Below are positions 19,042 through 20,255 of a stretch of DNA of 64,000 bases, piece by piece. The stretch is from UHGV virus genome UHGV-1370948; one strand, 5' to 3'. The position numbers were made by a program, and so were the translations under genes. The DNA is from a virus. Position 1 is the first letter of the stretch; each line of letters begins with the position of its first letter. Under the pieces are notes generated by a model that saw only the letters and a list, made by a program, of their open reading frames with translations, was not told the DNA's origin and did no database searches.

Positions 19042-20255
19042 GCGAGCTGAGTTATCTGGAAAAACTGCTGGATGGGGCTGAGGTTGAATGGTTACCTCTT
19101 GACGAGATAATAGAATTAAAACGTGGGAAAAGATTAGTCAGGAGTCAGCTTGCGTTAGAGGGGAAGTATGCTGTATACCAGAATAGCATGACCCCTTTGG
19201 GGTATTATCACGAATGCAACACGAATCCTGAGATGGTTTTTGTTATTTGTGCAGGGGCTGCCGGTGAGGTGGGTTATAGCATTAATCCTATTTGGGCTGC
19301 GGATGATGTCTATTATGTTGCTTCATCAGGGAAATTAAATAACAAGTTTTTGTATCACTTTTTGCTAACGCAAAGAACCAAAATTTTATCACAAGTACGC
19401 AGGGCTAGTATTCCTCGACTATCAAAATCATCGATAGATAATATAGTCATCCCCATCCCTTGCCCCAACAACCCTGAAAAATCGCTGGCAATCCAGTCAG
19501 AAATCGTCAGGATTCTGGATAAATTTACCGCCCTTACCGCTGAGCTTACCGCTGAGCTTACCGCTGAGCTTACCGCTCGCAAAAAACAGTACAGCTACTA
19601 TCGTGACCAGTTGCTGAGTTTTGAGGAGGGTGAGGTTGAGTGGAAGACTTTGGATGAAGTATCGAAAAAAATTTCTTCAGGTGGGACACCCAAAACTGGA
19701 GTAGCAGAGTATTACGATGGTGATATTCCTTGGTTACGAACGCAAGAAGTAAACTTTCGTGAAATATGGGATACAGGTGTGAAAATAACTGCATCAGGAG
19801 TTAAAAACTCCAGTGCAAAAATGATTCCGGTGAATTGTGTAATCATTGCAATGTATGGGGCAACTGTTGGGAAAATTGGTATTAATAAAATACCTATGAC
19901 AACAAACCAGGCATGTGCAAACATAAGTATCAATGAAAAAATTGCGAACTATCGCTATGTATTTCATTACTTAACAAGCAAATACGAATATATTAAGTCA
20001 TTAGGCTCTGGCTCACAGACTAACATAAATGCTCAGATTGTTAAGGGGCTGAAAATTCCACTCCCATACCCATCTGACCCTGAACAATCCTTAGCCGAAC
20101 AAGCCAGAATCGTCGCTATATTGGATAAGTTCGATGCACTAACCGGCTCCATTACTGAAGGCTTACCCCGTGAAATCGAGCTTCGCCAACAACAGTACGA
20201 ATACTACCGTGACTTGCTGTTCAGCTTTCCAAAACCTGAATCCGTAACTAACTGA
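19038..20255 (+). CDS. hsdS: type I R-M specificity subunit HsdS (type IC-like, TAEL repeats in central conserved region)
   Basis: Two TRDs around central [28 protein letters not shown] and C-terminal [12 protein letters not shown] repeats; ATGA coupling to hsdM. Confidence 0.85.
19527..19580 (+). repeat. 12-bp tandem repeat CTTACCGCTGAG x3 perfect + 1 degenerate (encodes TAEL repeats)
   Basis: Read directly from sequence. Confidence 0.9.

What the first reader, a model, noticed from the sequence alone, without database searches (positions are those of the whole stretch)
19527..19580. TAEL-encoding 12-bp tandem repeats in hsdS: a specificity-switching hot spot
The central conserved region of HsdS contains three perfect and one degenerate copy of CTTACCGCTGAG ([15 protein letters not shown]). 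In the type IC family (EcoR124I vs EcoR124II), the number of TAEL repeats (2 vs 3) sets the spacer length of the bipartite recognition site. Unequal crossing-over changes specificity. This phage-borne system therefore belongs to the IC family and its specificity is likely prone to repeat-number variation.
Basis: partly seen in the sequence, partly recalled or inferred. Interest (0 to 1): 0.6.

Follow-up and report, generated by a model that had tools for sequence, protein, structure and literature searches.

The report
TAEL spacer repeat in phage-plasmid hsdS
A 12-base repeat inside the DNA-recognition gene of a restriction system carried by a Klebsiella phage-plasmid is present three times here and twice in an almost identical sibling, the textbook way this enzyme family changes which DNA sequence it cuts, so the finding is real but ordinary.

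Summary
Window 19533-19577 holds 3.75 perfect copies of CTTACCGCTGAG. It is the only perfect tandem repeat in the 64 kb. It lies in frame in hsdS (19038-20255) and encodes [15 protein letters not shown].

- hsdM-hsdS-hsdR is an intact type IC system. HsdM is 87.8% identical to EcoR124 HsdM. HsdR matches EcoR124I HsdR end to end. The HsdS conserved regions are 88-92% identical, and both target recognition domains (TRDs) differ.
- The array sits in the middle of the first coiled-coil helix.
- Population variation exists. The 3-copy allele occurs on two contigs. A third contig (ENA ERZ27276295, 112.8 kb) carries 2 copies. It differs from one 3-copy contig only by that 12-bp unit over 17.9 kb.
- Across the wider family, 2- and 3-copy alleles are both common on viral contigs (46 vs 36), and 4- and 5-copy alleles exist.
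- Units within a gene are identical at the DNA level in 87% of pairs, against 1.2% expected from codon usage.

By analogy with EcoR124I/II and NgoAV, the window's enzyme should read the same half-sites as its sibling with a spacer one base longer. That step is inferred, and the motif is unknown.

This is a new member of a known kind, of modest interest.

The parts
17485..19041 (+). hsdM, type IC N6-adenine methyltransferase subunit (518 aa)
   Evidence: Pfam N6_Mtase and HsdM_N. 87.8% identity to EcoR124 HsdM, PDB 7bst_D. DPAAGSG and NPPY motifs are present, and an ATGA overlap joins it to hsdS.
19038..20255 (+). hsdS, specificity subunit (405 aa plus stop)
   Evidence: Pfam Methylase_S, two stretches. 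Full-length match to EcoR124 HsdS 7bst_A, E = 5e-85. AF2 model pLDDT 87.8, best PDB fold match 7bst_A.
19110..19448 (+). TRD1 (about aa 25-137), the target recognition domain for the 5' half-site
   Evidence: Only 18% identical to the EcoR124I TRD1. The same TRD1 is present in plasmid pKqq_SB1124_3 and two other Klebsiella plasmids.
19473..19613 (+). D1 helix of the central conserved region (aa 146-192), which contains the TAEL array
   Evidence: AF2/DSSP helix 146-192, 47 residues, in the 3-TAEL protein; 146-188, 43 residues, in the 2-TAEL sibling. The central region is about 92% identical to EcoR124I.
19533..19577 (+). Tandem array, 3.75 x CTTACCGCTGAG. TAEL codon units lie at 19536-19547, 19548-19559 and 19560-19571.
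   Evidence: TRF, sequence, translation. One unit is absent in L002.
19650..20108 (+). TRD2 (about aa 205-357), the target recognition domain for the 3' half-site
   Evidence: 30% identical to the EcoR124I TRD2. Replaced by an unrelated TRD2 in the otherwise 99.6-99.8% identical plasmid L001, whose blastn alignment to the window breaks off between 19640 and 20109.
20079..20219 (+). D2 helix of the C-terminal conserved region (aa 348-394), the coiled-coil partner of D1
   Evidence: AF2/DSSP helix of 47 residues. It aligns without a gap to D1 only in the 3-TAEL form, with [12 protein letters not shown] opposite TAEL x3.
20381..23503 (+). hsdR, restriction/translocase subunit (1040 aa)
   Evidence: Pfam HSDR_N, SWI2_SNF2, T1R_D3-like and EcoR124_C. 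1915 bits to EcoR124I HsdR 2w00_A over the full length. GSGKT, DECH, D..E.K and QxxxY motifs are present.

Best explanation
The window comes from a roughly 112-kb Klebsiella-type phage-plasmid that carries an intact type IC restriction-modification operon, hsdM-hsdS-hsdR.

Where the repeat sits. The 12-bp array encodes three TAEL tetrapeptides in the middle of helix D1 of HsdS. D1 pairs with helix D2 in an antiparallel coiled coil, and this coil holds the two target recognition domains (TRDs) apart.

What copy number does. In this family each TAEL adds about one helical turn to D1. That moves the two methylated adenines one base pair further apart. The 3-copy allele in the window should therefore recognise the same two half-sites as its 2-copy sibling, with a spacer one base longer, as in the EcoR124II/EcoR124I relationship.

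How units change. Units are gained or lost in frame. The 45 bp of perfect periodicity allows either unequal crossing-over or replication slippage.

Effect of a change. Each change creates at one stroke a new restriction and methylation specificity. Sibling phage-plasmids with different copy numbers would then no longer protect DNA against each other's enzyme.

Shown here: the array; type IC membership by sequence; the location in the helix; a near-clonal 2-copy/3-copy pair; and family-wide homogenisation of the units.

Inferred: the +1 spacer shift, the mechanism of unit gain and loss, the switching rate, and the ecological consequence.
For: Array and reading frame.

Type IC identity of all three subunits and intact catalytic motifs.

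Helix geometry.
- TAEL residues 167-178 lie inside D1.
- D1 is 47 residues with 3 TAEL and 43 with 2, while D2 is 47 residues in both.
- D1 and D2 align without a gap only with 3 TAEL.
- The best structural match is EcoR124I HsdS.

Natural variant.
- P0001 is the window's HsdS minus one TAEL.
- Its contig, L002, differs from the window by 2 SNPs plus the 12-bp unit over 21.2 kb.
- With L244 added, the difference is 4 SNPs over window 1-30255.
- L227 also has 3 TAEL and carries the same 2 SNPs as L002. L227 and L002 therefore differ only by the repeat unit over 17.9 kb.
- Only these three contigs carry this exact HsdM.
- Other family members differ from the window by 91-435 SNPs per 22 kb.

Family-wide dynamics.
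- Alleles with 4 and 5 copies exist (L063, L021, L077).
- In IMG/VR there are 46 alleles with 2 copies and 36 with 3.
- A second pair with the same TRDs has 2 vs 3 copies (L168 and L133).
- Units within a gene are identical in 87% of pairs, against 13% between genes and 1.2% expected from each gene's own codon usage.

Functional precedent.
- EcoR124I (N6) vs EcoR124II (N7), and the EcoDXXI hybrids (PMC3874165).
- NgoAV with 1 vs 2 LEAT repeats gives GAC N6 TGC vs GAC N7 TGC by PacBio (PMC6789123).
- Deleting one TAEL converts EcoR124II to EcoR124I in the laboratory. The published primer shows the same DNA unit, ACCGCTGAGCTT (PMC10644984).
Against: - No methylome or restriction data exist for this allele, so the half-sites and the spacer are unknown.
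- All three contigs are metagenome assemblies, and no reads were inspected. Within-sample heterogeneity and the true switching rate are therefore unknown.
- None of the 120 closest protein homologues has 3 TAEL (86 have 2). For relatives of these TRDs the 2-copy state is the norm. It is not shown that the 3-copy enzyme with these particular TRDs is fully active.
- How a change in one helix of the coiled coil is accommodated is unresolved even for EcoR124 (PMC3874165).
Confidence: 0.85

Rival explanations
1. The 2-versus-3 difference is real, but it is a rare, essentially static polymorphism. The array would not mutate faster than an ordinary indel, so 'hot spot' overstates it.
For: No rate was measured. 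Only three contigs of this lineage exist. None of the 120 closest homologues has 3 copies, so changes may be infrequent in this TRD background.
Against: - The unit change arose between genomes with 0 SNPs in 17.9 kb, and 4 SNPs in 30 kb against the window. This single locus therefore changed at least as fast as about 18 kb of sequence accumulates one substitution.
- Units are homogenised within genes across 162 genes, 87% identical against 1.2% expected. That pattern needs recurrent gain and loss.
- Spontaneous switching between EcoR124 and EcoR124/3 is documented (PMC3874165).
Confidence: 0.15
2. The extra TAEL is functionally silent or damaging in this TRD combination. The 3-copy enzyme would have the same specificity as the 2-copy one, relaxed specificity, or no activity.
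For: The register problem of lengthening only one helix is unresolved. Close homologues sharing these TRDs all have 2 copies or fewer.
Against: - In every tested type IC case the spacer followed the copy number: EcoR124I/II, the EcoDXXI/EcoR124 hybrids and NgoAV.
- The 3-copy form makes D1 and D2 equal at 47 residues and alignable without a gap.
- The 3-copy allele was found in two independent samples with all three genes intact.
Confidence: 0.07
3. The copy-number difference is an assembly or sequencing artefact, and no biological variant exists.
For: All three sources are metagenome assemblies. Tandem repeats can be collapsed by assemblers.
Against: - The whole array is 45 bp, shorter than a read and shorter than the k = 141 implied by the contig name, so it is spanned rather than assembled across.
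- The 3-copy form was assembled independently twice, by JGI and by ENA.
- The difference is exactly one in-frame unit.
- The same 2/3 polymorphism is seen in another TRD pair from isolate-derived IMG/VR contigs.
Confidence: 0.03

Closest known systems
EcoR124I / EcoR124II (R124 and R124/3), the type IC archetype pair
   Same: - Same gene order, and 88% identical HsdM.
- Near-identical HsdS conserved regions.
- The same DNA unit, ACCGCTGAGCTT, encoding TAEL.
- The same 2-versus-3 copy polymorphism in otherwise identical genes.
   Different: - Both TRDs are unrelated (18% and 30% identity), so the recognised half-sites are different and unknown.
- The array is followed by TA-R instead of NM-R, so DNA periodicity runs to 3.75 units.
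- The carrier is a phage-plasmid, not the conjugative plasmid R124.
- The variants were seen in metagenomes, not selected in the laboratory.
EcoDXXI and EcoprrI (type IC, three TAEL repeats, N7 spacers)
   Same: Three TAEL repeats in D1, the state described as the apparent optimum from D1/D2 alignment. The window likewise aligns D1 to D2 without a gap only with three repeats.
   Different: Different TRDs.
NgoAV of Neisseria gonorrhoeae (type IC, LEAT/TAEL repeats)
   Same: Natural strains carry different numbers of the tetrapeptide repeat. PacBio shows the spacer growing by 1 bp per repeat, GAC N6 TGC vs GAC N7 TGC (PMC6789123).
   Different: NgoAV is chromosomal. It also has a poly-G frameshift that truncates HsdS. 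Nothing comparable is seen here: hsdS is a single intact ORF.
Phase-variable hsdS genes with simple sequence repeats (Atack et al. 2020) and inverting hsdS shufflons
   Same: Repeat- or recombination-driven changes of type I specificity that generate subpopulations with different methylomes.
   Different: - The unit here is 12 bp and in frame, so it changes spacing rather than switching the gene on and off.
- There is no second hsdS copy or fragment in the 64 kb for inversion.

Membership tests
Type IC restriction-modification family (EcoR124 family) | HsdM and HsdR closely related in sequence to the EcoR124 subunits, and much closer than to type IA | tested here: met
   HsdM is 87.8% identical over 517 aa, 1018 bits against 68 bits to EcoKI HsdM. 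HsdR scores 1915 bits over 1-1040 against EcoR124I HsdR and has Pfam EcoR124_C.
Type IC restriction-modification family (EcoR124 family) | HsdS layout of N-conserved, TRD1, central conserved, TRD2 and C-conserved regions, with the family's conserved regions | tested here: met
   N-terminal region 21/24, central 58/67 (with a 4-aa gap) and C-terminal 42/48 identical to EcoR124I HsdS. TRDs 18% and 30%. The fold matches 7bst_A.
Type IC restriction-modification family (EcoR124 family) | TAEL tetrapeptide repeats in the central conserved helix D1 | tested here: met
   TAEL x3 at aa 167-178, inside helix 146-192.
Type IC restriction-modification family (EcoR124 family) | Gene order hsdM-hsdS, then hsdR as a separate unit | tested here: met
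   hsdM and hsdS overlap by ATGA, and a 125-bp gap precedes hsdR. Promoter-like sites lie upstream of hsdM and hsdR but are no more frequent than in shuffles, so separate transcription is not shown.
Type IC restriction-modification family (EcoR124 family) | Subunit complementation or antibody cross-reaction with EcoR124 (the classical definition) | not testable with these tools
   Needs genetics or biochemistry.
Type IC restriction-modification family (EcoR124 family) | Bipartite asymmetric target whose spacer follows TAEL copy number | not testable with these tools
   Needs a methylome or a restriction assay. The precedent comes only from the literature.
Repeat-driven specificity-switching (contingency-type) locus | Copy number of the tract differs between otherwise identical genomes | tested here: met
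   L002 (2 units) against L227 (3 units): 0 other differences in 17.9 kb.
Repeat-driven specificity-switching (contingency-type) locus | Frequent, reversible switching within a clonal population | not testable with these tools
   No reads or cultures were available. The only indirect support is the homogenisation of units within genes.
Frameshift-type SSR phase-variable hsdS (phasevarion type) | A change in repeat length shifts the frame and switches or truncates HsdS | tested here: not met
   The unit is 12 bp. Both the 2- and the 3-copy alleles are full-length ORFs.
Inverting hsdS shufflon | Extra hsdS copies or TRD cassettes with inverted repeats close to a recombinase | tested here: not met
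   blastn and tblastn of hsdS against the window find only the gene itself. The integrase at 25375-26421 has no hsdS partner.

The most novel reading that the evidence does not exclude
TAEL arrays may be kept as perfect DNA repeats by selection for switchability across many bacterial phyla and their phages. Phage-plasmids such as this one would then use frequent 2-to-3 and 3-to-2 copy switching to split a clone into sibling lineages that restrict each other's DNA. That would amount to a built-in kin-discrimination and anti-superinfection device, rather than an occasional evolutionary accident.
Probability: 0.2. Interest if true: 0.55.

Novelty: new member of a known kind. Interest (0 to 1): 0.3.

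Why it matters
The locus gives a clean natural counterpart of the classic EcoR124I/EcoR124II laboratory pair, this time on a Klebsiella phage-plasmid. Two almost identical 112-kb elements differ only in one TAEL unit.

If the predicted one-base spacer shift holds, clonal phage-plasmids can become mutually restricting by a single 12-bp event. That would affect how these elements, which often carry resistance genes in Klebsiella, spread and exclude one another.

The pair is also a ready-made test case for an unresolved structural question: how a coiled coil tolerates lengthening of one helix only.

The mechanism itself is textbook, so the result confirms and extends existing knowledge rather than changing it.

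Tried and rejected
- An allele-specific pattern with a variable gap was scanned in metagenome contigs and viral contigs to find more copy-number variants of this exact allele. There were 0 hits in both, although the pattern matches the window. Those collections evidently do not hold these contigs.
- An exact look-up of the window's HsdS in the clustered protein collection found nothing, and P0001's cluster has a single member. No 1- or 4-copy siblings were found.
- The primary EMBO J papers (PMC556444, PMC553956) are not held. The functional precedent is therefore cited from the review PMC3874165.
- The half-sites could not be predicted. TRD1 and TRD2 are only 18% and 30% identical to the EcoR124I TRDs. 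The next solved relative of TRD2 is the M. jannaschii S subunit 1yf2, for which these tools gave no recognition sequence. No REBASE-type table was available.
- Promoter and terminator scans around the operon gave counts no higher than in shuffles, so they were not used.
- Inverting-shufflon and frameshift phase-variation readings were considered and rejected.
- The named SSU5-like Klebsiella phages are only 71-74% identical at the DNA level. The element is therefore described as a phage-plasmid related to that supergroup, not as a member of a named species.

Full report
OBSERVATION

The sequence at 19527-19580 reads ACCGCC CTTACCGCTGAG CTTACCGCTGAG CTTACCGCTGAG CTTACCGCT CGC. Tandem Repeats Finder gives 19533-19577, period 12, 3.8 copies, 100% matches and score 90. 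In a scan of all 64 kb this is the best-scoring and the only perfect array.

The array lies in frame in a 405-codon ORF, 19038-20255. It encodes L166, then TAEL three times (aa 167-178), then T179-A180-R181. A 45-bp tract of perfect period 12 is not a chance event. The arithmetic gives about 1e-15 per 64 kb, and a pattern spanning the array has 0.00 matches in shuffles.

WHAT THE GENES ARE

Three co-oriented ORFs make up the system:
- hsdM, 17485-19041
- hsdS, 19038-20255
- hsdR, 20381-23503

Their Pfam domains are as expected, including EcoR124_C in HsdR.

Comparison with solved structures gives the following:
- HsdS matches EcoR124 HsdS end to end, E = 5e-85.
- HsdR matches EcoR124I HsdR with 1915 bits over 1-1040.
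- HsdM matches EcoR124 HsdM with 1018 bits and 87.8% identity. EcoKI HsdM (type IA) scores 68 bits.

Within HsdS, identity to EcoR124I by region is:
- N-terminal conserved region 21/24
- central conserved region 58/67, including the 4-aa gap
- C-terminal conserved region 42/48
- TRD1 18%
- TRD2 30%

The catalytic motifs are intact: DPAAGSG and NPPY in HsdM, and GSGKT, DECH, D..E.K and QxxxY in HsdR. hsdM and hsdS overlap by ATGA.

This is an intact type IC system with a new pair of target recognition domains (TRDs).

WHERE IT SITS

The flanks encode a tail fibre, DnaB helicase, primase, ligase, a PolIII-alpha-type polymerase, SbcCD, ribonucleotide reductase and thymidylate synthase. Sibling contigs add a 3583-aa tail-tip protein, ParA and a Rep3 initiator.

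The closest database record is a circular, non-mobilizable 115.6-kb Klebsiella quasipneumoniae plasmid, 99.6-99.8% identical on both sides of TRD2. Named SSU5-like Klebsiella phages are only 71-74% identical. The element is therefore a phage-plasmid of the SSU5-related kind, and 'phage-borne' is a fair description.

POPULATION EVIDENCE

The best protein homologue, P0001 (401 aa), is the window's HsdS minus exactly one TAEL.

The three contigs compare as follows:
- L002 is P0001's contig: ENA ERZ27276295, 112,806 bp, 2 TAEL. It differs from the window by two SNPs (14701, 14719) and the 12-bp unit over 21.2 kb. With L244 added, the difference is four SNPs over window 1-30255.
- L226 is a JGI 3300045988 contig of 112,727 bp with 3 TAEL. 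It is identical to the window over the compared stretch.
- L227 is from ENA ERZ28648811 and also has 3 TAEL. It carries the same two SNPs as L002.

L227 (3 units) and L002 (2 units) therefore differ by nothing but the repeat unit over 17.9 kb. No other contig carries this HsdM. Other members of the phage-plasmid family differ from the window by 91-435 SNPs per 22 kb.

The same lineage also shows the other classical route of type IC change. Plasmid L001 has a foreign TRD2 (its alignment to the window breaks off between 19640 and 20109). SNPs start to cluster at about 19530, so the left crossover lies in or next to the TAEL array.

FAMILY-WIDE PICTURE

Of the 164 arrays found in these 163 loci, 154 lie in the HsdS context ILDxF...(TAEL)n...RKxQY. 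The hosts span Proteobacteria, Firmicutes, Bacteroidetes, cyanobacteria and others. Alleles with 4 and 5 copies occur.

A complete scan of IMG/VR for ILDxFxxx(TAEL)n gave 46 alleles with two copies and 36 with three. Among the enterobacterial-type ILDKF alleles the counts were 30 and 17.

A second pair with the same TRDs but 2 vs 3 copies was found, L168 and L133. Their HsdS proteins are 99.5% identical apart from the repeat.

Units within one gene are identical at the DNA level in 86-87% of pairs. The figure is 13% between genes, and 1.2% is expected from each gene's own codon usage for T, A, E and L (162 genes). That pattern is the signature of recurrent unit gain and loss.

One unexplained contrast remains. 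None of the 120 closest homologues of this HsdS has three copies, while 86 have two.

HOW IT MOST LIKELY WORKS

AF2 models (pLDDT about 88) place the TAEL residues in the middle of helix D1. D1 is 47 residues long with three TAEL and 43 with two. The partner helix D2 is 47 residues long in both models.

D1 aligns to D2 without a gap only in the three-copy form, with [12 protein letters not shown] opposite TAEL x3. This agrees with the literature remark that three is the apparent optimum.

The functional precedent is this:
- EcoR124I has 2 TAEL and recognises GAA N6 RTCG. EcoR124II has 3 TAEL and recognises GAA N7 RTCG.
- EcoDXXI and EcoprrI have three repeats and N7 spacers.
- Engineered hybrids followed the same rule, and the change is ascribed to unequal crossing-over (PMC3874165).
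- In N. gonorrhoeae, natural NgoAV alleles with 1 vs 2 repeats methylate GAC N6 TGC vs GAC N7 TGC (PMC6789123).
- Removing one TAEL converts EcoR124II to EcoR124I. The published primer shows the same DNA unit as the one here (PMC10644984).

I therefore infer that the window's enzyme recognises the same half-sites as its 2-copy sibling with a spacer one base longer. I also infer that units are gained and lost by unequal crossing-over or slippage in the 45-bp perfect tract. Neither the motif nor the rate was observed.

RIVALS

- Assembly artefact (0.03). This is unlikely because the array is shorter than a read and the 3-copy form was assembled twice independently.
- A silent or inactive extra repeat (0.07). 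This runs against every tested type IC case and against the D1/D2 symmetry.
- A static, slowly changing polymorphism (0.15). It is not excluded, because no rate was measured. It fits poorly with a change that arose between genomes with no SNP in 17.9 kb, and with the homogenised units.

VERDICT

The mechanism is textbook for type IC, and natural copy-number variants with methylome proof already exist for NgoAV.

What is new here:
- a new TRD combination
- a phage-plasmid carrier
- a near-clonal natural 2/3 pair
- a simple survey showing concerted evolution of the units

This is a new member of a known kind, with interest about 0.3.

Noticed in passing
window 41265-41343 (next to ORF 41501-42613, minus strand): An imperfect 21-bp tandem repeat of 3.8 copies (TRF score 79) lies about 160 bp from a Rep3_N-type initiator gene. 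These are probably iterons of the plasmid-mode origin.
   Followed up: no
window 15725-16270 and 16243-16512: Two anti-defence genes sit about 1-1.8 kb upstream of hsdM: a Tad2-like protein (anti-Thoeris) and an Acb2/Tad1-hairpin protein (cyclic-nucleotide sponge type). Defence and counter-defence genes therefore share one island.
   Followed up: partly
window 17073-17330; 24250-24810 and 24801-25217: A Phd/YefM-like antitoxin ORF lies just upstream of hsdM with no obvious toxin partner. Downstream of hsdR, a YafO-family toxin is preceded by a 186-aa ORF with no Pfam hit, a possible new antitoxin.
   Followed up: no
window 30838-33210 and 33221-34441: The PolIII-alpha-type DNA polymerase is encoded as two adjacent ORFs. 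PHP, pol3_alpha and finger domains are in the first and HHH_6 in the second. The same split is seen in all sibling contigs.
   Followed up: no
window 19530-20109 vs L001; window 20867-23542 vs L231: The hsd cassette is a variable spot in this phage-plasmid family. L001 has a foreign TRD2, with the left crossover at or next to the TAEL array. L231 is 99.3% identical downstream of hsdR but only 92% identical within hsdR.
   Followed up: partly
protein homologues P0001-P0120 vs IMG/VR loci L123-L225: None of the 120 closest HsdS homologues has three TAEL (86 have two). On viral contigs three-copy alleles are almost as common as two-copy ones (36 vs 46). This is unexplained. TRD pairs may prefer one spacing.
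   Followed up: no
L021 (Thiothrix MAG), L077 (Oscillospiraceae MAG), L063 (Enterocloster bolteae MAG): These are natural HsdS alleles with five, five and four TAEL copies, beyond the 2-3 range of the characterised enzymes. Their spacers are unknown.
   Followed up: no
window 25375-26421: A tyrosine integrase gene lies 1.9 kb downstream of hsdR in an element that replicates as a plasmid. No second hsdS or inverted hsdS fragment accompanies it.
   Followed up: partly
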